In this document: in pieces, positions 25,590 to 64,000 of the stretch | Layout of the letters: every line of letters begins with the position of its first letter | Position numbering within the stretch: the stretch's first letter is position 1 | Assembly: GCA_026936335.1 (NCBI GenBank) | Contig: JAPMXV010000063.1 | Span: forward strand, 124,001 to 188,000 | Direction of reading: 5' to 3' | DNA: 64,000 bases | Source of the DNA: Mantamonas sphyraenae STR306 | Taxonomy: Eukaryota > Protista > CRuMs | Program-made: the position numbers and the translations under genes | The notes under the pieces: generated by a model | Seen by the model: the letters and a program-made list of their open reading frames with translations, nothing else | The model's database searches: none | What the model was told of the DNA's origin: nothing

Positions 25590-27110
25590 TCAAGTTTGCA
25601 CCGACTTGCCCTGCAGCCAGTCCCACCGCTCAGTCCTCACACCGCCCACATTCTTCTCTGCGTCTGCCCACCAGGCAGGGTCCACAATCTCGTTGGCGTG
25701 GCTTGCCGGAATACGTGCCTTTGTGCAAAAGTGCGACGGCGGATCCGTGTTGTCGATTTCCAGCCGGCTGTTGACGTCGCGTGTGGTCTTGTGGCATCCG
25801 AGATGCGTTAGGGTGTTGAATACAAGGCCTCGTTCGCCGCGTCTGTACATCAATACACTGTCCACAATGCGGGACACCTTGTGTGCGCACGTCATGCCCC
25901 GATCCAGCAAACTCTGGCTCAGTTTCATCCTCTTCTTGATCCCTGCATGGTCGTTCAGCCAGCGATTCAGCGTGGACACAATCACGTCAGGTGGCACGTT
26001 GTGGCGCAGCTCAAACATGGCACTCCTGTACATCGCATCGTCCTCCAGCGGCAGATCAGAGACCACCGCTGTGCCCACCGCAAACGCCTCGGCGTACTTC
26101 ATGATGGCGTAGCGAAACACAGACGCATCGAAAATCACCAGTCTGGAGTTTCCCAGCTGCCTGAGAAAGTCACGTGTCTGGTTCATCAGCGTGCCTGTGT
26201 CCGCTTCGATGTCGATGTACCCCTGGCCGTCGTTGTCCACCCTCAGTCCCATACCCAGCCGTTCCTGCTCACTGAAATGATCCGGATAACCTGGGTGCCC
26301 ACGTGAGATGATCACCTTTGCGTCCAGCTTGCCAGCCATGGCAGCCGCACGCAACGCTACGCGCAACGGATAGAATGGCGCATACAGACTGCCCACAAAG
26401 AGGACATCCGTCGTCCGCTCCTCATAGGGTTTGTGGTAGCGCTTGTGAAAGTCCCCTGCACAGAACGGCAGCTGGTAGATCAACCGCTGCGCCCACATAG
26501 GCTTGTCCTGGAAGAACAGGTAGTTTTCGTACCCGTATGTGGAAAAGATGATGTCTGCCGACTTGACCTCTTCGTAGCACAGTCCATCCTGGCAGTCGCC
26601 CGCTCGGATGGCAATCAGAGTCTTGGGTGTGAGTTCGTCACGCTCCCGTACGATTTGAGCTCGGCTCACAGAGTGCAGTTCCTTCGTGTTTGGAAAGGTC
26701 AGGAAGCAGTAGATCACATCAAAGTGGTTCCTGCCGTACCGGTCCACCACATTCTCGATGGCACTGCGGTTGTTGTTGTACCCTGGCCACCCGGGCCCAA
26801 ACACCTCGGCTTCCCGCACGCACGGATGAACACGCGTCTCCTCAAACACAAACTGTTCCTGCTTGTCCATGCGCGACGCATAGAACGAATACTCGTACCA
26901 GAACAGCAGGGCCACTCCCTCGCCTCCTTCCTCCATGCACTTGACGCGTTCGTCGTCCCACGGGTTCGGCTCCCCGGCAAGCCGTCTGCTTCGTCCACCC
27001 TCCACACTGCTGCTCGTCATCAGCGGCCCGTGTGCGTACCGGCCCACGTACACAAACACTATACACACACACATACACAGCGCCATGCGCTTCAGCGTCT
27101 GGATGCCCAT
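25590..27110 (-). CDS. Type II membrane glycosyltransferase-like protein (GT-B, Glyco_trans_1_2/YkvP-like)
   Basis: N-terminal TM anchor; 'DVLFVGSLYAPFYPLR', 'GHPGY', 'LRQLGNSRLVIFDASVFRYAIMKYAEAFAVGTAVVSD'. Confidence 0.65.
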   Translation of the reverse strand: MGIQTLKRMALCMCVCIVFVYVGRYAHGPLMTSSSVEGGRSRRLAGEPNPWDDERVKCMEEGGEGVALLFWYEYSFYASRMDKQEQFVFEETRVHPCVREAEVFGPGWPGYNNNRSAIENVVDRYGRNHFDVIYCFLTFPNTKELHSVSRAQIVRERDELTPKTLIAIRAGDCQDGLCYEEVKSADIIFSTYGYENYLFFQDKPMWAQRLIYQLPFCAGDFHKRYHKPYEERTTDVLFVGSLYAPFYPLRVALRAAAMAGKLDAKVIISRGHPGYPDHFSEQERLGMGLRVDNDGQGYIDIEADTGTLMNQTRDFLRQLGNSRLVIFDASVFRYAIMKYAEAFAVGTAVVSDLPLEDDAMYRSAMFELRHNVPPDVIVSTLNRWLNDHAGIKKRMKLSQSLLDRGMTCAHKVSRIVDSVLMYRRGERGLVFNTLTHLGCHKTTRDVNSRLEIDNTDPPSHFCTKARIPASHANEIVDPAWWADAEKNVGGVRTERWDWLQGKSVQT

Positions 27111-27261: not shown

Positions 27262-29013
27262 ATGGACAAGGCCCCGTCACAGCGACATCCCATGCTGCGC
27301 GTTGGGGCCCAGCTCACCAGCCTCTGTTCGGAACCCCACCTCCCCGACCCGATGTGGATTGCACAGGCGTGGCGGGCGCTATCTGCCTCGCCTCAGATGC
27401 TGCTGCTTTTGGGGTTGAGCATGTTGTTGGGCTTCAACATCGGGTTCTACTCGCAGATGGAAGGCAGCAGCTTGGTGGCGGCGGACCATTCGTCGAATCC
27501 AGACGTGAGGCACGAGGGCGTGCTGGTGGACGACACGCTGCCCATGATTGAGTGTCGCCGCTACAAACCCATCCCCATTCTCTTTTTTGTACAGGACGAG
27601 GATCACATGACCGCAGAGGTGCGGGATACGCTGGAGAGTGCCCGCAAACACCCGTGTGTAACCCACGTCACCCTGGTACACACCAAACACTACTCCTACC
27701 AAAGCAACCAGTCGCCTGCAGAGAACATCCAGCGTATGCTCGGCACACAGTTTGACTACAAACTCATTTACTCTTTCATGACTCCGCCCGTGGACCTCGG
27801 CGGGTGGGACCCGCCCCCTCCCCCGCCGCCGGACGGCTTTGCCCACATGGAAAACGACAAGGACCCACGCTTCCCCGTATCATCTGCATTCTACTCCCAG
27901 TGTGAAATGAGCCAGTGCATGGTACCTCTCGGTGTCTTTCACGACAAGCTCAACTACCACAACCTCGAGCTCCATCGCGTGCACCGTCTGCCTCGCTCCT
28001 CCATTGTCTTTGTACCCAACACCTACGAGTTTCTGCGCCTGACCCACGCCGACCCTTCCCGTCTCTACGTCCACCTGCCCAGCTGCGTCTCTTCCCATTA
28101 CTTTGAAACAGACGTCATCGACGGCACCCGCAAGATCGACCTCCTCCTCGCCATCGGCCCCAAGGGCGACACCCTCAACCCCATCACCGTCACTCTCAGC
28201 CATGCTCTCAAACAGGGTCACTTTGCACAGTTTACCTCCCGCTGGAACGTTGCCATCATGCATCTGCAGACCGACGGCGTGAAAAAGGTCGTCTACAACG
28301 TCGGCCGCACCAACCAGCGCACCCTGCGCGTGCCCAGCATCGCCAAAATCCTTCGCGACGCTCGCGTTATGGCCTTGGACACAACCATGTACCGTCTCGT
28401 GCCCAAGCTCTTTCCCAAGGCCTTCCTCAGCTGGACTGCGGTGGCGTCCGACGTGCCCCTCGAGGCCCCTGGTGCCATGCACCGTGCTCTGCTGCAGATG
28501 CCCCAACACTGGACCCACGACCAACGCATCCACAACCTCGACCGCTGGCTGCAGAACCTACACCTGCTGCGTTCCAAGACACGGTACGCCCACAACTGGG
28601 CCAGCACACACTACAGTTGCCGCCAACGCGTCGCTCGCATCGTCAACGCCTACCACGCCTTTGTCTCTGCCGAACGTGGCCTCAAGATGAACAGCAAGAT
28701 GCGCTTTGGTTGCCAAGTGGAGAATCTCGACGAAGCCCTCAAGTCCACCCAGCAGGTTGCCCAGTGGCGCGCAGAGAAGTTTGAGCCATCGGGCAAGCAG
28801 TGGAAGGCTGCTGGATACAACGAATTTTGTCGCTGGGAAACCCTGCCTGTGGTCAGTGTCGAAGACCCGCGTGTGCAGCTGCCCAACACTAAGGATGGCA
28901 GTGCCAAAGCCGACAAACCGAGCCCCAACCACGACAACGACGACGACGACCACCACGACAATGTCACACCAAACGACGACCACCACGACAAAAAGAAGCC
29001 TACAGATGAATAG
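27262..29013 (+). CDS. Divergent paralog of the neighbouring glycosyltransferase-like protein
   Basis: N-terminal TM; shared motifs ETRVHPCV/ESARKHPCV, TAVVSDLPLE/TAVASDVPLE, CAHKVSRIV..GERGL..LGC/CRQRVARIV..AERGL..FGC. Confidence 0.6.
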   Translation: MDKAPSQRHPMLRVGAQLTSLCSEPHLPDPMWIAQAWRALSASPQMLLLLGLSMLLGFNIGFYSQMEGSSLVAADHSSNPDVRHEGVLVDDTLPMIECRRYKPIPILFFVQDEDHMTAEVRDTLESARKHPCVTHVTLVHTKHYSYQSNQSPAENIQRMLGTQFDYKLIYSFMTPPVDLGGWDPPPPPPPDGFAHMENDKDPRFPVSSAFYSQCEMSQCMVPLGVFHDKLNYHNLELHRVHRLPRSSIVFVPNTYEFLRLTHADPSRLYVHLPSCVSSHYFETDVIDGTRKIDLLLAIGPKGDTLNPITVTLSHALKQGHFAQFTSRWNVAIMHLQTDGVKKVVYNVGRTNQRTLRVPSIAKILRDARVMALDTTMYRLVPKLFPKAFLSWTAVASDVPLEAPGAMHRALLQMPQHWTHDQRIHNLDRWLQNLHLLRSKTRYAHNWASTHYSCRQRVARIVNAYHAFVSAERGLKMNSKMRFGCQVENLDEALKSTQQVAQWRAEKFEPSGKQWKAAGYNEFCRWETLPVVSVEDPRVQLPNTKDGSAKADKPSPNHDNDDDDHHDNVTPNDDHHDKKKPTDE

Positions 29014-29138: not shown

Positions 29139-30065
29139 TCAGTACCCGTCCCTTTCATCCAACTTTGTCTGCCGAATAAAGTCGCTCAGTGCGTCCTCCG
29201 ACTCGTGTGTTTGCACCCAACGCATGCCGGCGACGTCAAAGTTGCTGTCCACCAGCCATTCCAGATTGCGCAGCGAGTTGTCGTTGGACACCACCAGCAC
29301 ATACAACTTTCGTGTCGACGAGCATCGTTGAAGGTCCATGCCCATCTGAAACGTGATCGCATGGTCTGCTGCGTCCTTTGCCGCGTCTCGCGACGCCGAG
29401 TAAACGTCCGCGTTGATGATGTCCACCTTGCCCTTCTTCTGCCTCTCAAACACCCCCTGGCCATAGAACAGACCAAACCACACTCGGTGTACATCCTCAT
29501 CATCCACAAGAGACGCCATGGATGTGGCGTCGAAACTGTCTGCATCCACGTAGCACCAGATCTGCTCCGGCTTGCTAAAGTCGCGTGTCGCAAACACCCG
29601 TTCCGGTTCGGGCTGCGCGCTGCTGCTACCAAAGCTGCTGGTAAGCTCTTCAAACTTAAAGTTGGGTGCGTTGCTGGCATAGAGCGTGTGGCCGAGCGAG
29701 CCACTCGTGGTACTGTTGCTACCGCTGCTGCCGACGTTGTAACCACTGCTGCTCTCCACGTCAACATCCATTTCATACTTTCCTCCGCTGCTGCTGTTCT
29801 GCGCAGCCGCTACTGCAAACCGATGCTGCGAGTACGATCCACCCATGGCCTCAAACACCATATTGGCTGCCGTCTTCTGCGCCGACTTCTTTGAAGACCC
29901 TGTCGCCGCCCTTGCAATTTCGTGAACGCCATTGCTCACTGTGCAACGGCAGGCAAACACAGGTTGGTGGTCAGTCCCCCCCACCTTGCTGTGTTCGTAA
30001 TCCACAGTCAGCCGCGCGTGCTGATCGGTCATCTCTTTCAAGGCGCCAATGGGATTAGTCGTCAT
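29139..30065 (-). CDS. dsRNA-binding domain + NYN/PIN-like nuclease domain protein
   Basis: dsRBD: 'NPIGALKEM...GGTDHQPVFACRCTV...ATGSSKKSAQKTAA'. Ser-rich linker. PIN/NYN-like acidic motifs 'WCYVDADS', 'AKDAADHAITF', 'VLVVSNDNSL'. Confidence 0.7.
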   Translation of the reverse strand: MTTNPIGALKEMTDQHARLTVDYEHSKVGGTDHQPVFACRCTVSNGVHEIARAATGSSKKSAQKTAANMVFEAMGGSYSQHRFAVAAAQNSSSGGKYEMDVDVESSSGYNVGSSGSNSTTSGSLGHTLYASNAPNFKFEELTSSFGSSSAQPEPERVFATRDFSKPEQIWCYVDADSFDATSMASLVDDEDVHRVWFGLFYGQGVFERQKKGKVDIINADVYSASRDAAKDAADHAITFQMGMDLQRCSSTRKLYVLVVSNDNSLRNLEWLVDSNFDVAGMRWVQTHESEDALSDFIRQTKLDERDGY

Positions 30066-30905
30066 TGCCGATTGGTTTGTGTTTGCGGAAACTGCGCGCC
30101 GCGGATCGCGAAGAGTTGAACCCGTCCCTGACTGCATCCTCCGCAAACGTCACTCCACATGTTGTCAACGAGGAACTGACTGCATCCATGGCACCCAGTG
30201 CAACTCAAACCAAAGCATCATTGCAATGAAAACATGGCATTCCATTCACGGTCATCTCTTTCAAGGCGCCAATGGGATTAGTCGTCATTGGAGATTGGTT
30301 TGTGTTTGCGGAAACTGCGCGCCGCGGATCGCGAAGAGTTGAACCCGTCCCTGACTGCATCCTCCGCAAACGTCACTCCACATGTTGTCAACGAGGAACT
30401 GACTGCATCCATGGCACCCAGTGCAACTCAAACCAAAGCATCATTGCAACGAAAACATGGCATTCCATTCATAACCAACCGATGCTACTGGTACGATCCA
30501 CCCATGGCCTCAAACACCATGTTGGCTGCCATCTTCTTCGCCGACTTCTTTGAAGACCCTGTCCCCACCATTTCAATTTCGTAAACGCCATTGCTCACTA
30601 TGCATCGGCAGGCAAACACAGGCATGTGGTCGGGCCCCCCCACCTTGCTGTGTTCGTAGTCCACAGTCAGCCGCGCGTGCTGATCAGTCATCTCTTTCAA
30701 GGCGCCAATGGGATTAGTCGTCATTGCCGATTGGTTTGTGTTTGGGGAACCTGCGCGCCGCGGATCGCGAAGAGTTGAACCCGTCCCTGACTGCATCCTC
30801 CGCAAACGTCACTCCACATGTTGTCAACGATGAACTGACTGCATCCATGGCACCCAGTGCAACTCAAACCAAAGCATCATGGAAAATCTGGCATTCCATT
30901 CCACA
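29820..30905. repeat. Tandem partial triplication of the dsRBD gene 5' region (A ~29820-30248, B ~30249-30472, C ~30478-30905)
   Basis: The near-identical ~220-nt block 'ggtcatctctttcaaggcgcc...ggcattccattc' occurs three times; copies A and C also share the dsRBD coding segment. Confidence 0.92.
30485..30724 (-). CDS. dsRBD-only paralog (about 79 aa), truncated copy or pseudogene
   Basis: MTTNPIGALKEM...GGPDHMPVF...GSSKKSAKKMAANMVFEAMGGSYQ*, with a CAG->TAG stop immediately after the domain. Confidence 0.6.
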   Translation of the reverse strand: MTTNPIGALKEMTDQHARLTVDYEHSKVGGPDHMPVFACRCIVSNGVYEIEMVGTGSSKKSAKKMAANMVFEAMGGSYQ

Positions 30906-30935
30906 CAGCGTTCATCCCGCCTCCTTCACACACAG

Positions 30936-46872: not shown

Positions 46873-49087
46873 ATGTCCTCGAACGAAGGTGAAGAAGACG
46901 TGCAGCACGATCGTGTGAATGCAACCAAGTACTACATCAAGAATTACTACGACAAGCTGTACTCGGATATCCAGCAGCGCGAACTGAGGTGAGTGGCACT
47001 CGGAAATCATGCCTGCGCAGCACACGCGGTGACGTGAATGGGCCAAAGTGGAGATACAAACGGCTGCTCTCGCCTCTGTGCATGTATATGGGTGTGAAAT
47101 GCGAGGGCGATGACATAAATGCCTTGTCGTGGCCGGAGGTGGTGCGGATGCATGTTTGCGCACTTCCTGCGCGCGCATCGAGAAGGCTCCGGACAGGCGG
47201 GCTATGGTCATCATGAGCCCAGGGTGCCGTTGATGAGCCCACATGTTCATAGCATTGGGTGGACAGGGTGGATATGTGACGCAGGAGCACAAGGAGGGGG
47301 CGGCGAGGCCGTGTCTCTCCTGTCGTGCGTTTTCCACGCGCACAAATTTGTGCGATCCCTCCTCCGCGCGGAGATGGCTGACACAGAGACACGACGGCAC
47401 GTTTGCTGCTTCCTGGGCGCACGTGGGATGTCCTGGTGCTATGTGGCGGCTGCACACACAGGCGACAGGAGCTGGAAGATGCGATGCAGCAGAGTGAACT
47501 TACGGAAGAGGAACGCGATCGGCTGCTGAGCGTGTACCTGGAGAAGGAAAGCGAGTACATGCGGCTGAAGCGCAAGAAGATGACTATTGCCGACTTTCAG
47601 ACCCTCAAGGTGATCGGCAAGGGCAGCTTTGGCGAGGTGAGTGCTTTTTGCCGAGAGCGGCCAGCTTTTCGGTTGGAGGGCGAGTTTCTCGACGACACAA
47701 CAAGAGTGTTTCCCCGCGCGATAGAGCGGTGTGCAATGGGCGCGAGCTCACTGTGGCTCACACACGCATGCAAACACATACGTTTACACACATAAACACG
47801 CGCACGCACAGGTTCGTCTCGTGAAAGACAAGGAGACGGGCGAAGTGTTTGCCCTGAAGAAAATGAGCAAAGAAGCTATGATCGAACAAAAGCAGGTGAG
47901 TGGCCACACGGGGACGGGGTAGAACGCACACCACGTGCAAACGCAACATGGGCGTGTGTTGCAGTCGCGTGCATGTGCATGTGGCGTGGCTCTGCGTGAG
48001 GGATGTGGAAAAAGGGTGGAACGTGCAGCTGTAACCCTGATCAGTTGGGCGGACGCACACTCACACGGCACGCACGGCACAACTAAAGATCAACAACATC
48101 CGCAACGAACGCGACATCATGACCATGTTCAACGACAACCCGTGGGTGGTGACACTGTACTACAGCTTCCAGGACAACGACTTTCTGTACTTTGTGATGG
48201 AGTACTACCCCGGCGGCGACCTGTGGAACCTGCTGCAGAACACAGGGCTGAGCGAGGACGAGATCCGCTTCTACTTGGCCGAGGTGGTGCTGTCCATCGA
48301 CAGCATCCACCAGATGCAGTACTTCCACCGCGATCTGAAACCGGAGAACATCCTGTTTGACCGCGACGGCCACATCAAGCTGGCAGACTTTGGCCTGTGC
48401 AAACCTGTGGGTGAACAGCACGAGCCACTGATCAACTCGCTTAAGGACAAGGAGGCGCGGGAAAAGGTGGCCAAGGCGCACGAAAACACCTCCACAAAGT
48501 ACAAAATCGACACGTGGCGCAAGCAGCGCAAGGAGATGGCCTTTTCGGTGGTGGGCACGCCTGGATACGCGGCGCCAGAGGTTATGTACGAAACGGGCTA
48601 CGGCAAGGAGTGCGACTGGTGGTCGCTGGGCGTGATGTTCTTTGAGATGCTGTTTGGGTACCATCCATTCCACGCCGACAACATCGAGGAGCTGTGCATC
48701 AATGTGCTCAACTGGAAGACGACGCTGAAGTTTCCCAGCGACATCGAGGTGACGGAGGAGGCCAAGGACATGTTGACGGGCCTGATCTGCGATGCCAAGG
48801 AGCGTCTCACCGTGGACGACATCAAGGCGCACCCGTTCTTTGAGGGAGTTCCCTGGGACGAGATCCGGTACTTGGACCCGCCGTTCATCCCACGTGTGCA
48901 GAACATCACCGACACCACGTACTTTGGCGAGTTTGCCGACGAGGAGGTCGAAGACGACGACGAGCTGAGCGAAGAGAACACCACTCCGCGCTACAAGCAG
49001 ATGGATGGCGATCAGATGGCATGGGTGGGATTCACCTACAAGAGGTTCGACGCCGTTATGGACAAGCAGACGCGCATGGATGGGTGA
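46873..49087 (+). CDS. NDR/LATS family AGC kinase; three to four introns
   Basis: Mob-binding NTR 'ATKYYIKNYYDKL...RELR...KESEYMRLKRKKM', 'IGKGSFGEV', 'HRDLKPENIL', 'DFGLC', 'AFSVVGTPGYAAPEV', hydrophobic motif 'WVGFTYKRF'. Confidence 0.93.
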
Positions 49088-56538: not shown

Positions 56539-58693
56539 TTACAGGGTGAAGGAAAGTGCCGCACACACACACACCGCCAACAAAGTCCACATGCCGAGGA
56601 CCACACCGCTAGCTGCCGAGTACGTCTTGAAAGGATCGCTGGTGGTCGCCTTGACGGCGCTGGGGCAGGCACGGGAGTACTCTGGGCAGGTGATGGAGCC
56701 CTGAAGGCCGCCGTTGTTGACCTGCACCACGCCGCCCGCCGTGGGGCAATCCACGTAGTTGCTCGTGCCTGTGTCGACCAGCACCTTGAAGGTGTTGCCT
56801 TCGCACTTGGTCTGGTAGCACTTGGGCTCGCTGTTGGCCTGTGCACCTCCGCTTGCCACGTTGCTCATCACACACTTGCTGCCGTCCACACCGTACCGTT
56901 CGCCGTTGTTGGTGCGCGAGCTGGAGCCTGCGCTGCTGTCTGCACACAGACGGTACGGCGTCGACAACGACGGGTAGCCACAGTAGTCATAGAAGGAGGA
57001 CGAGCCACCTGTGGTTGGCGAGGTGTAATGCTGGTACCACGGAGGCAGCGACAGGTGTTGGGTCACATCACAGCTTGCTGCGCCATACAGATTTGCGTCG
57101 CAGTTGACTGCGCCGGAGCTGGAGCAAAAGTAGGCCGAGCTGCGGTCGTTGCAGTCCTTCTCCACAAAGTCGCACCCTGCGCCGTGGCCGTAGGGGAGCG
57201 CCTGGATATGCGACGAGTCCCAGTTGATACTGTAGTGACCTGTGTCCTGCAGAAACGCCAGTGGGAAGGCGGACATGACCGGGTACACGCTGGTGGACGC
57301 CGTCATCATCTCAATACCCAGGATGCGCTTCTCAAAGTGGGACCCAGCCGAGCCCGTTCCTCCGCCATCCTCCAGCGCCACGCCGTTCACGAGTGCGCTG
57401 CATCCAAAGTGTTTCTGGGCCACATCCATCACGGCAGACGTCTTCAGGTACGACACCGTGTGCGACTGGCTGCCGTACGTCGTCGTCACCTCCTTGATGA
57501 CGCTCGAACGCGGCAGGAACGACGTGTACGACGACGGCGAGCTCGGGTTGCGGAACTTCTCGTACATGCTGGACGTAAAGCCCAGGGCGTGCATCACCTC
57601 GTGCATAATCACTTGGATGTCCCCTTCCTTCTCCTCCACGCCCGCCGAACTAGAGGCACCCGTCATGTGCTGCGGCCCCCAGTTGACGTGCCCTGCAATC
57701 GGTCGCGTACGAAACGCCAGGCACTGCGACGTCGTGTGTGCCACGTTTGTTTGTTTATGTGCCGTGTGGCGTGTGTCTGTGTCAGAGAGGTGCTACGGCG
57801 AGTTTGTGTCCTGGAACACTTTTTTGTGGGAAAAGCTGCAGGCGTTCTCGGGTTTCCCGGCTGCGGTGCGTGCCACCTACCTGTCCAGCGTAGGCGACGG
57901 TGCCTCCAAACGTAGGACGGCCTGTGAGGAAGAGCGCAATGTCGTAGGTGTCGAACGCGGTATCCTTTCCGCCGGTCATGGCCGCCGGGACGGGAACACC
58001 GCCGTAGAAGCCGCAGTTTGTTCCGTCCTCAATCTGTGCCGCGTGAGAGATGCAAGGAAATCGTCAGCACATGTGACAGAGAGAGAAAGAGAGAGGGCAC
58101 AGATACTCAGCGGCACGTACCTTGATGCCACGGGGCGTGGGTTCGACCAGAAGCACATCTTCGAGGCGCTTCTCCACTTCGGGCAGGATCTGGTTGACCA
58201 CATAGTCGTGCTTGGCCTGGGTGAGCACAAGGGAGGAGGTACACGTGCCTGAGCAAGCGTCCTCAGTGCCGTCCGCGCACTGGGTGCTTCCGCCAGACCC
58301 GGACTTGTAGGTCTGCCCTGCGGTGTAGCAGGTGCGGTCGCCGTCACTGTTGAGCGAGAAACGGGACAAATCAAAGCGAATTCGGATTTTGCCGCGTGTC
58401 TTTGTGCTCATCAGCGTCAGCTCGCCGTCCTCTGCGGCGTCGCCGTTTTGGGAAAGCGCGCCTGCCGCGTCGCGTGCGTTCAACAGCTGCTGCTGCTGCG
58501 AAGGCTCACCGGCCTCCTTCACCTTCCATCCACTCTGTTCGTGCGTGTGCATCATACGGTCGTGCATGCACTTGTGTTCGCGCGGACGAGCGTCCAAGGG
58601 CTTCTCGCCTGCGTCCAGATGGCCTTGCACCTGTGCCACACACGCAACCATCAGCATCACTGCCAAAATCTGTCCCACATTGTCCTTGTTCAT
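56539..58693 (-). CDS. Leishmanolysin/GP63 (peptidase M8), secreted and probably GPI-anchored; two introns
   Basis: Signal peptide, prodomain 'HKCMHD', 'HEVMHALGF', 'LEDGGGTGSAGSHFEKR', 'EMMTA', 'LQDTGHY', Cys-rich C-terminus and hydrophobic tail. Confidence 0.92.
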
Positions 58694-62172: not shown

Positions 62173-64000
62173 TCAAGTGGCCTTGTCCTTGCTCTTGGCC
62201 CATGTGAGGCTGGCTGGGCGAGTGCCACGATCCATCTGCGTAAGGAATGCAATCAGAATGTTCTCACACGCAGATGTGTCTCGATCCTTGATGATTGGCC
62301 AGCCTGATGCATGCTGAAGTGTCGCTAGCATGGCTGCACCTGCCGTTCGGTCGTTGTACGACACGCTGCAGGCGCACTTGACGCTGCGACCAAACTTGTT
62401 GATGTTCGAGCCGACTTCAGCGACACCCTGGACCTCGTACCCGCAGTTGGAGCAGCACTTTGTTGTGCGGTGCTCGTTCACGAGGAAGACCGGGGAGCTG
62501 CGTGCCAGGTCGTCCCTCACCGCAGCGTCATTTGCACATCCGCGTCTCCAGCCCTGCGTGTTGCCCATCACATACACAATCACGCCTGAGTTGTCACCTG
62601 GTTTGTTTCCCGACAGCTCCTTTGCGGCTCGTTCAACGTTTGACTGCAGCCTCTGTGTCTCCTTCATGCGGCTCAGGTTTACGATGATGCGTCGCTGCCG
62701 ATCCTCCTCGCTGCCGTGAGAGCGCGTTTGGTGGCCCCGCTGGCCTGTCAGATGTTGTCTCTTGGCATGAGTGTGCACAGGCACATTGACCGCTTCGGCG
62801 TACACTTGCGCACCCCTCATCGTGGACTCCAATGGTTTGCTGATTTGCCAGTGCGTTTTCCAGCTGCCCGTGTCCGCCGTGGCCACCACAATGCTCTCGA
62901 GGGCCTTCTTGTGATTCTGCAGCTCCTTGGTCGTGGGTGGTCGTGTTTGGCTTGGTTTGATGACGCCTGTGAATACGCTCGCTTGGGGTAGGCAGCGCAC
63001 AAACCAACTGGGCAATAGTTCTTCCAGCTCCTTCGGCACCCCACATAGCACGCTCAACTTCACACAGAACTCCGCCAGTTTGCTCTTCGACCAGTTTGTG
63101 GGTACGTGGTGTGCAATCCATCCGAGAGAACGCGACTCAGGGAGCACGACGTCCGCGAGCGTCAGCCCAAACTTCTTCACCTGGGCCTTGGTCATCACCA
63201 CGCCTGCGACATGGCTGTCATATCTGAGGATGCGTTTGACGGAACCACACACCTGCACAGTGCCGGTGGCGTGTGCGAGGACATGGCCAGGAAGTACACT
63301 CAGTTGAGGTAGCAACAACGCCGCGAGGGCCACACGGCGGTGCCAGAACGACGTGAGCTGGGCATCTTGCTCGTCGTCCACGTCGCCCTCATGTTCCTCT
63401 TCGTCCAGCTTGTGCATCGTTTGCGCCACCCAGGGAGCCGAACGATGCAGCGTTGCCGAGTGGGTCTCCAACCATTCCCTGGCCGGCTCGAGGCCATCTT
63501 TGGGAAGGGTGGACAGCGTGTGCAACAGAGTACTCGTGCCGACTTCTGTGGTATCGATATGCGACAGCAGCCGGTGGATCAGTGATGGGGTGAAGTTCAC
63601 GCATGAACAGAGAGGCCGCTCACTTGGCATACCACGGCTTCCTCCCTTTTTCAGTCTGTTGGAAATGTACTGTGCTGCATGGTTGGTCAGCTCGGTCCGA
63701 GGTGCGTCCATGGTGTTGGCGAAAAAAGTGCTCTTGGACACGCCCTTGCACACCAGCTTCTTGGCCAGGTTCCTCACCCTCGAACCCAAGGCCTCGTCCA
63801 TCTCGCTGTCTGTGATCCACTTGGTCACCTCGTCGGGAATGCCATCGTCCACACGCTGGTGTTTCTGGCCAGCTTCCGCTTCCGCGGGCTCTGGCGAGCC
63901 CGAATCCATCTCTGATTTCTCGCTGCGCTCCCGCTTGCGCTCGTTGTGCACGCCTGTGCGCGTCTTTTGCGATGTCTTGGAACGATGCCGTGTGCTCCGT
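62173..64000 (-). mobile_element. Fanzor/TnpB-like RNA-guided endonuclease ORF (intronless; frame stays open to the window edge, first ATG 63909)
   Basis: RuvC-I 'SIVVATADTGS' (D ~62873), 'VIVYVMGN', RuvC-II plus zinc finger 'VFLVNEHRTTKCCSNCG...VKCAC' (E ~62474), RuvC-III 'KDRDTSACENI' (D ~62279), and C-terminal 'RGTRPASL', as typical of eukaryotic Fanzors. Confidence 0.8.

What the first reader, a model, noticed from the sequence alone, without database searches (positions are those of the whole stretch)
29139..30065. dsRBD fused to a NYN/PIN-like ribonuclease domain: possible dsRNA-sensing nuclease
Seen: an N-terminal canonical dsRBD, a Ser-rich linker and a ~150-aa domain with acidic motifs YVDAD, KDAAD and VSND, spaced like the catalytic Asp set of NYN/LabA/PIN nucleases. 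I do not recognise this two-domain architecture as a standard eukaryotic gene; it is not Dicer, RNase III, ADAR or PKR. Inference: a compact sensor-effector for antiviral or anti-transposon dsRNA degradation, or a gene of viral origin. It is intronless and sits in a recently rearranged locus.
Basis: partly seen in the sequence, partly recalled or inferred. Interest (0 to 1): 0.78.

Follow-up and report, generated by a model that had tools for sequence, protein, structure and literature searches.

The report
dsRNA-guided NYN ribonuclease in a protist
This protist gene joins a double-stranded-RNA-binding module to a domain that likely cuts RNA; the same pairing occurs in another protist, was tabulated once for a red alga and likely occurs in giant viruses, so it may be an untested weapon in host-virus conflict.

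Summary
29139-30065(-) encodes a 308-aa protein: a dsRBD (Pfam E 2e-7, RNA-contact residues kept), a Ser/Gly-rich linker and a ~150-aa alpha/beta domain. That domain matches home-built NYN and PIN7 profiles above all shuffled controls, not vWA, with D174, D234 and D262 on the three core NYN catalytic positions. Pfam's own models miss it; fold searches of solved structures are only compatible. One true relative was found among 1.84 billion representatives: a 270-aa Mantamonas plastica protein with both domains and the aspartates. A Galdieria dsrm+PIN_7 protein is one row in a 2017 supplement. Fold search with the nuclease domain alone retrieves a pithovirus dsRBD protein (E 3e-3), so giant viruses likely share the architecture; this scan noted that viral family before on other DNA. 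The gene sits among housekeeping genes at host depth, so it is not a recent viral insert; long unbroken reading frames are common here. A tandem duplication left a dsRBD-only copy. Best reading: a dsRBD-tethered, metal-dependent endoribonuclease cutting single-stranded RNA beside duplexes, probably in virus or transposon conflict. Activity and role are untested. New variant of a known kind.

The parts
29139..30065 (-). dsRBD-NYN gene, 308 aa (P0001)
   Evidence: covered by one DNA contig with 1 difference in run X3
29838..30059 (-). dsRBD, about residues 3-76; E11, G30, H33, K59, K60, A62 invariant with P0005, the paralog and a TARBP2-like protein
29595..29837 (-). Linker, residues 77-157, Ser/Gly/Thr-rich, shorter in P0005
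29142..29594 (-). NYN/PIN7-like domain, residues 158-308
29544..29546 (-). D174, Asp after strand 1 (predicted catalytic)
29364..29366 (-). D234, Asp at the start of the crossover helix (predicted catalytic)
29280..29282 (-). D262, Asp after the following strand (predicted catalytic)
30485..30724 (-). dsRBD-only duplicate, 79 aa, 10 amino-acid changes in 78 codons, open frame ending just after the domain
   Evidence: (dsrm E 1.3e-10)
30026..30248 (.). First 40 nt of the gene plus 183 nt upstream; copy 1 of the 223-nt repeat
30249..30471 (.). Copy 2 of the 223-nt repeat (99%): upstream region plus a 13-codon stub; junction with copy 1 not confirmed by reads
30685..30907 (.). Copy 3 of the 223-nt repeat (93%), heading the dsRBD-only duplicate

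Best explanation
A resident protist gene encodes a dsRBD joined by a long Ser/Gly-rich linker to a minimal NYN/PIN7-like domain that is likely an active metal-dependent endoribonuclease; the dsRBD would dock it on RNA duplexes, the nuclease would cut single-stranded RNA beside them, and its role is probably destruction of viral or transposon RNA. Shown: the two domains, the kept dsRBD contact residues, the three core aspartates, the same architecture in Mantamonas plastica, chromosomal embedding. Inferred: Mg/Mn binding by D174/D234/D262 (helped by D176, D231 or D244), cleavage of loops and flanks rather than the duplex (by analogy with MARF1), and the conflict role (from patchy spread, fast divergence, likely sharing with giant viruses and a local duplication). 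I put active dsRBD-guided RNase at about 0.7 and the conflict role at about 0.6 given that.
For: dsRBD with invariant E11, G30, H33, K59, K60, A62. Profile-profile scores of the two-sequence domain alignment: NYN 34.3 (E 5e-5; global alignment over 138 columns), PIN7 29.4 (E 3e-4), vWA 11.6, against maxima of 19.8, 19.2 and 20.4 in 60 column shuffles each. P0001 scores 11.7 bits on the PIN7 profile and P0005 11.6 on the NYN profile, each above 1000 of 1000 shuffles. Language-model neighbours are PIN7 and NYN clusters (cosine 0.87, lead only). Model pLDDT 70, pTM 0.71, with Asp residues after strand 1, at the start of the long helix and after the next strand, the three near-invariant positions described in PMC5499597. 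MARF1 NYN cuts ssRNA with Mn/Mg and needs its aspartates (PMC6294520). Mantamonas P0005: 41 of 136 aligned residues identical in the domain, six Asp kept, complete ORF from a transcriptome assembly. Viral fold matches to dsRBM-annotated proteins. 4 of 6 variants in the ORF are silent (P 0.023).
Against: Pfam PIN7 and NYN models hit neither protein. P0005 does not score on the PIN7 profile (192 of 1000 shuffles reach it) and P0001 only weakly on the NYN profile (33 of 1000). Only 1 of 5 models folded (pLDDT 70 vs 36-39). In solved-structure searches MARF1 NYN (Z 7.5-7.6, rmsd 3.3-3.4, 109-112 aligned, highest identity of the 50 rows) is tied with generic alpha/beta folds and Foldseek listed vWA rows first, none at E<=0.001. 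The second Asp of the NYN 'SxDxD' motif is absent. All viral matches are E 1e-3 or weaker, one set from a pLDDT-35 model, and no viral sequence was obtained to check aspartates. The silent-variant excess drops to P 0.07 if the variant shared with the paralog is left out. Nothing here shows expression of this gene, cleavage, or induction by virus.
Confidence: 0.45

Rival explanations
1. Same enzyme, housekeeping role: a MARF1/DNE1-like turnover or maturation nuclease aimed by its dsRBD at structured cellular RNAs.
For: It lies among housekeeping genes (SF3A3, USP9X/24-like, VPS35-like, aconitase, PDI), is kept in a second protist as a transcript-derived ORF, and characterised eukaryotic NYN proteins act in mRNA decay (PMC6294520).
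Against: Only 1 true relative among 1.84 billion representatives and 1 eukaryotic PIN_7 member in the 2017 survey: too patchy and divergent for a core pathway; likely viral sharing.
Confidence: 0.27
2. Origin reading (compatible with either role): an old capture from a giant virus, where the protein would clear viral dsRNA or shut off host mRNA, since domesticated by the protist; Galdieria would be a separate capture.
For: More family members appear in viruses than in cells: cluster pim0198/NCVOG0527 in 8 pitho-, orpheo- and marseille-like genomes with hits to Klosneuvirus (PMC6401483 supplements), a 71-member Nucleocytoviricota dsrm cluster as top look-alike of P0005 (cosine 0.90), Mimivirus and Indivirus dsRBM rows. 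GC3 0.686 is second lowest of 16 genes.
Against: Closest relative is cellular (30% vs about 20% for viral fold matches); no viral marker gene among the 21 other window ORFs scanned with Pfam; same depth as flanks; GC3 inside the host range 0.67-0.87. Direction cannot be told without a tree.
Confidence: 0.35
3. A dsRNA-sequestering protein whose NYN domain is inactive, working like iridovirus 340R by shielding dsRNA or siRNA.
For: Lacks the second Asp after strand 4; the 2017 survey marks PIN_7 as having both active and inactive members; 340R suppresses RNAi by dsRNA binding (PMC4231766); a dsRBD-only copy sits next to it.
Against: Six aspartates, including all three core ones, are kept at 30% identity.
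Confidence: 0.13
4. The C-terminal domain is another alpha/beta fold (vWA or similar), and the NYN reading is a look-alike.
For: Foldseek's first rows in the PDB are vWA domains; no curated profile hit.
Against: vWA profile scores at shuffle level (11.6 vs shuffle mean 13.1); Asp positions match NYN/PIN7 columns; Foldseek TM-scores to vWA are at most 0.47.
Confidence: 0.05

Closest known systems
Galdieria sulphuraria Gasu_15960 (XP_005707613.1), dsrm + PIN_7, Supplementary Table S1 of PMC5499597
   Same: Same domain pair and order, PIN-like domain at 176-276.
   Different: [quoted passage not shown] Its sequence was not obtained, so kinship with P0001 is untested.
[quoted passage not shown]
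   Same: 213-299 aa proteins with a dsRBD; the LCDPAC01 entry matches the isolated NYN-like model over 143 columns, TMq 0.55; LCPAC103 and Orpheovirus entries top the full-length search.
   Different: Viral, no nuclease domain annotated (NYN 0 occurrences in those supplements); about 20% identity; aspartates not checked here.
MARF1 / DNE1 / NYN-OST-HTH ribonucleases (NYN PF01936)
   Same: NYN endoribonuclease aimed by fused RNA-binding domains; same three core Asp.
   Different: They use LOTUS/OST-HTH and RRM domains, not a dsRBD; P0001 is compact and has no such domains.
Bacterial PIN7 (PF18475) and ZNF451 PIN_11
   Same: Minimal NYN variant; matching crossover-helix and strand-4 motifs.
   Different: Below Pfam's cut-off; bacterial members are of unknown function per PMC5499597. 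PIN_11 was not tested by profile.
RNase III / Dicer
   Same: dsRBD plus nuclease.
   Different: No RNase III domain; different fold and reverse domain order.
Iridovirus IIV-6 340R
   Same: NCLDV dsRBD protein acting in RNA-based conflict (PMC4231766).
   Different: Its C-terminal part is 73 aa and no nuclease is described in the passages read.

Membership tests
dsRBD (PF00035) | Profile score above the curated cut-off | tested here: met
   31.7 bits vs 23
dsRBD (PF00035) | RNA-contact motifs of helix 1, GxxH loop and KKxAxK helix (motifs recalled) | tested here: met
   E11, G30, H33, K59, K60, A62 invariant in 4 of 4 aligned sequences
dsRBD (PF00035) | Binds dsRNA | not testable with these tools
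   needs EMSA
NYN-like group of the PIN superfamily | Asp after S1, Asp/Glu at start of crossover helix, Asp/Glu after S4 (PMC5499597) | tested here: met
   D174, D234, D262, kept in P0005 and aligned to NYN and PIN7 columns
NYN-like group of the PIN superfamily | Profile similarity above controls | tested here: met
   hhalign 34.3 (NYN) and 29.4 (PIN7) vs shuffle maxima about 20; vWA 11.6
NYN-like group of the PIN superfamily | PIN-like fold without a helical insert after S2 | tested here: inconclusive
   Model topology fits but MARF1 NYN Z 7.5-7.6 is tied with unrelated alpha/beta folds
NYN-like group of the PIN superfamily | At least four acidic residues in one pocket | tested here: inconclusive
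   D176, D231, D244 also conserved; their positions in space were not measured
NYN-like group of the PIN superfamily | Metal-dependent endoribonuclease activity | not testable with these tools
   needs assay
PIN7 (PF18475) | Pfam score above 34 bits | tested here: not met
   no hit; home-built profile gives 11.7 bits for P0001, -1.1 for P0005
NYN (PF01936) | Pfam score above 24.2 bits | tested here: not met
   no hit; home-built profile 1.5 bits for P0001, 11.6 for P0005
NCLDV dsRBM family pim0198/NCVOG0527 | Homology over both domains with viral members | tested here: inconclusive
   Foldseek E 1.2e-3 to 3e-2; no viral sequence recovered in 8 of 8 viral scans
RNase III / Dicer / ADAR / PKR | RNase III, deaminase or kinase domain | tested here: not met
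   only dsrm in Pfam; the NCBIfam RNase III row covers only the dsRBD, 28 bits vs cut-off 166

The most novel reading that the evidence does not exclude
An undescribed family of one-chain dsRNA sensor-nucleases (dsRBD + NYN) has been traded between giant viruses and deep-branching eukaryotes: hosts use it as a Dicer-independent antiviral RNase, viruses as a dsRNA-clearing counter-defence, and the adjacent dsRBD-only duplicate is a newly born regulator or decoy.
Probability: 0.2. Interest if true: 0.8.

Novelty: new variant of a known kind. Interest (0 to 1): 0.5.

Why it matters
If active, it is a 300-residue dsRNA-guided RNase built from neither RNase III nor Dicer parts, easy to express and test. 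It would give a function to an unannotated giant-virus gene cluster and to the PIN7 group, and point to an RNA-level arms race between giant viruses and protists, where little about antiviral defence is known. If it is a turnover enzyme, it is a modest addition to the MARF1/DNE1 theme.

Tried and rejected
No whole genome is held, so RNAi genes and other copies outside the window could not be sought. Word-indexed protein searches: 0 of 78 candidates for the C-terminal region; 1 of 6737 at E<=0.01 and 2 of 6737 at E<=10 for the two-sequence profile; lengths above 539 or below 148 aa were not searched. 4 of 5 hits were rejected as summed repeats (two autotransporter PATR, one WAP/SEA, one choline-binding). 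PHROGs, NCBIfam and PDB sequence searches gave nothing for the domain. Locus searches confirmed no relative in viral contigs, metagenomes or prokaryote genomes. Degenerate dsRBD-motif scans of viral contigs gave 90 loci, 53 with the motif in frame, 0 of 53 with an NYN-like score above 2.4 bits; of 16 scanned with Pfam, 7 were RNase III, 3 other dsrm proteins, 6 without dsrm; a stricter pattern gave 1 irrelevant locus. These blanks do not show absence. tblastn in plasmids (best E 0.1-0.2, 30-34% cover) and phages (E>=3) was treated as chance. The full-length model was poor (pLDDT 35); its viral search is used only as a lead. No RNA holder listed. Paper searches for the architecture: 3 papers, none describing it in the two I searched; 0; 1; 0; 0; subscription papers, including the 2006 NYN paper, were not seen, the PMC5499597 supplement was cut when stored, and bioRxiv supplements are closed, so more rows may exist. 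One GC3 row and one Pfam query (48119-49087) were taken on the wrong strand and dropped. Recent viral insertion was considered and rejected.

Full report
Observation. Window 29139-30065(-) is one open frame of 308 codons. Pfam finds dsrm at residues 15-71 (E 2.4e-7, above cut-off) and nothing else; the best solved relatives are TARBP2 and Loquacious dsRBDs. The window is eukaryotic: neighbours include SF3A3, a USP9X/24-like protease, a VPS35-like protein, aconitase, PDI and PPR genes. The protease gene is a single 8,625-nt frame, so lack of introns says nothing about origin. GC3 of the gene is 0.686, inside but near the bottom of the range of 15 other window ORFs, 0.669-0.868 (one wrong-strand row dropped).

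The gene is in the chromosome. Four DNA runs of one study hold the stretch (4 of 6 listed; one may be the window's own source). One contig covers 28600-30070 with 1 difference; in two other runs contigs join the gene to its neighbour at depth 40 and 52, against 46 and 61 on the other flank. Six variants fall in the ORF: 4 silent, 2 replacing (one in the linker, one in a dsRBD loop), none in codons 158-308. That is more silent than expected (P 0.023), or borderline (P 0.07) without the variant that equals the paralog's base.

Relatives. Searching the C-terminal domain against 1.84 billion representatives gave 5 hits at E<=0.001. Four are repeat artefacts. The fifth, P0005, is a complete 270-aa ORF from a Mantamonas plastica transcriptome assembly with an N-terminal dsrm (E 1e-3, under cut-off), although no dsRBD was in the query. 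The two share 41 of 136 aligned residues in the C-terminal domain and 17 of 76 in the dsRBD; D174, D176, D231, D234, D244 and D262 are all kept. In Supplementary Table S1 of PMC5499597 (seen: outline, passages, section 22, supplement searches; file cut when stored) the eukaryotic PIN_7 row is Galdieria Gasu_15960 with Pfam dsrm and a PIN-like domain at 176-276. So the architecture has been tabulated once but not discussed; I could not obtain that sequence.

What the domain is. Pfam's PIN7 and NYN models do not hit either protein. Language-model neighbours are PIN7 and NYN clusters at cosine 0.82-0.87, a lead only. To test this I built profiles from bacterial loci: PIN7 from 13 of 16 matches (3 under the cut-off dropped), NYN from 20 loci, vWA from 15 loci as control. 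Against the two-sequence alignment, hhalign gave 34.3 for NYN (E 5e-5; global mode aligns 138 columns), 29.4 for PIN7 (E 3e-4) and 11.6 for vWA; 60 column shuffles each reached at most 19.8, 19.2 and 20.4. Singly, P0001 beats 1000 of 1000 shuffles on PIN7 but is reached by 33 on NYN; P0005 beats all on NYN but is reached by 192 on PIN7. The domain is therefore NYN-group, not assignable to either Pfam family. D174, D234 and D262 fall on the three near-invariant acidic positions described in PMC5499597, equivalent to MARF1 D358/D426/D452 and B. fragilis NYN D13/D118/D143 (passages of PMC6294520 and 10.1101/2024.04.08.588522). The second Asp after strand 4 is missing, as in PIN7. The AlphaFold model (pLDDT 70, 1 of 5 models) has the expected strand-helix order. 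Fold searches of solved structures are compatible but not decisive: no Foldseek hit at E<=0.001, vWA rows first; MARF1 NYN at Z 7.5 (rmsd 3.4, 112 aligned, 17% identity, the highest of 50 rows) tied with generic folds.

The viral link. [quoted passage not shown] The poor full-length model (pLDDT 35) ranked an Orpheovirus protein and a second pithovirus dsRBM protein first and second, with Mimivirus and Indivirus dsRBM proteins lower (lead only). The top look-alike of P0005 is a 71-member Nucleocytoviricota cluster, 82% dsrm (cosine 0.90). Supplements of PMC6401483 (seen: passages and table rows) put proteins of matching name and length (213 and 228 aa; matching is my inference) in cluster pim0198/NCVOG0527, present in 8 genomes, with alignments of 199-249 columns to Orpheovirus and Klosneuvirus proteins, longer than a dsRBD; no nuclease is annotated. 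None of 8 viral scans recovered a sequence, so viral aspartates and the direction of transfer are open.

Local duplication. Upstream lie a 79-aa dsRBD-only copy (30485-30724) and a 13-codon stub, from tandem duplication of the upstream region and 5' end. The copy differs by 10 residues in 78 codons, pN/pS 0.57 on small numbers, keeps the contact residues and scores higher on dsrm than the full gene (42 vs 32 bits). One junction is bridged by reads in 2 of 2 runs, with a second allele beside it in one; the other is not bridged in the listed pieces. It may be a decaying duplicate or a dsRNA-binding competitor; nothing here decides.

Mechanism. Shown: domains, motifs, conservation, host context. 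Inferred: the dsRBD holds the protein on duplex RNA, the 80-residue linker lets the NYN domain reach nearby single-stranded RNA, and metal-bound aspartates cut it, as MARF1 NYN cuts ssRNA with Mn/Mg. A conflict role is favoured over housekeeping by rarity, divergence, likely viral sharing and the fresh duplication; giant viruses also pair dsRBDs with RNase III and a 3'-5' exonuclease, and iridovirus 340R suppresses RNAi through its dsRBD (passages of PMC4231766). None of this is direct evidence.

Novelty. RNA-binding-domain-guided NYN RNases are a known kind; the dsRBD-guided form is recorded as one table row and an unannotated viral cluster, and my searches found no paper describing it (passages of PMC2848206 and PMC3710099 read concern other fusions; the 2006 NYN paper was not seen). 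Verdict: new variant of a known kind, interest 0.5.

Noticed in passing
window 62173-63999 (-), open at the window end: ORF of 578+ aa with a weak Cas12f1-like TNB zinc-finger match (E 0.004, under cut-off) and a weak transposase PHROG (E 0.17); looks like a TnpB/Fanzor-type nuclease (family label recalled). No PDB sequence support.
   Followed up: partly
window 25590-27110 (-) and 27262-29013 (+): Two divergent ORFs (506 and 583 aa) next to the gene, each with an N-terminal hydrophobic stretch and no convincing Pfam, NCBIfam, PHROG or PDB match; by eye they resemble Golgi-type glycosyltransferases (recalled impression).
   Followed up: partly
window 29080: A 25-nt deletion just downstream of the stop codon in 2 of 4 runs, and two alleles at 30420-30530 in run X1: the locus is polymorphic.
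   Followed up: no
window 56539-57666 (-): Leishmanolysin (GP63)-like peptidase M8, E 1e-47.
   Followed up: no
L247:1-1587:+: Viral contig with an N-terminal dsrm followed by over 430 residues without any Pfam family.
   Followed up: no
PMC6401483 supplement 9, LCMiAC02 and Catovirus rows: Giant viruses also carry a dsRBD fused to a DEDDy 3'-5' exonuclease: a second non-RNase III dsRBD-nuclease pairing.
   Followed up: no
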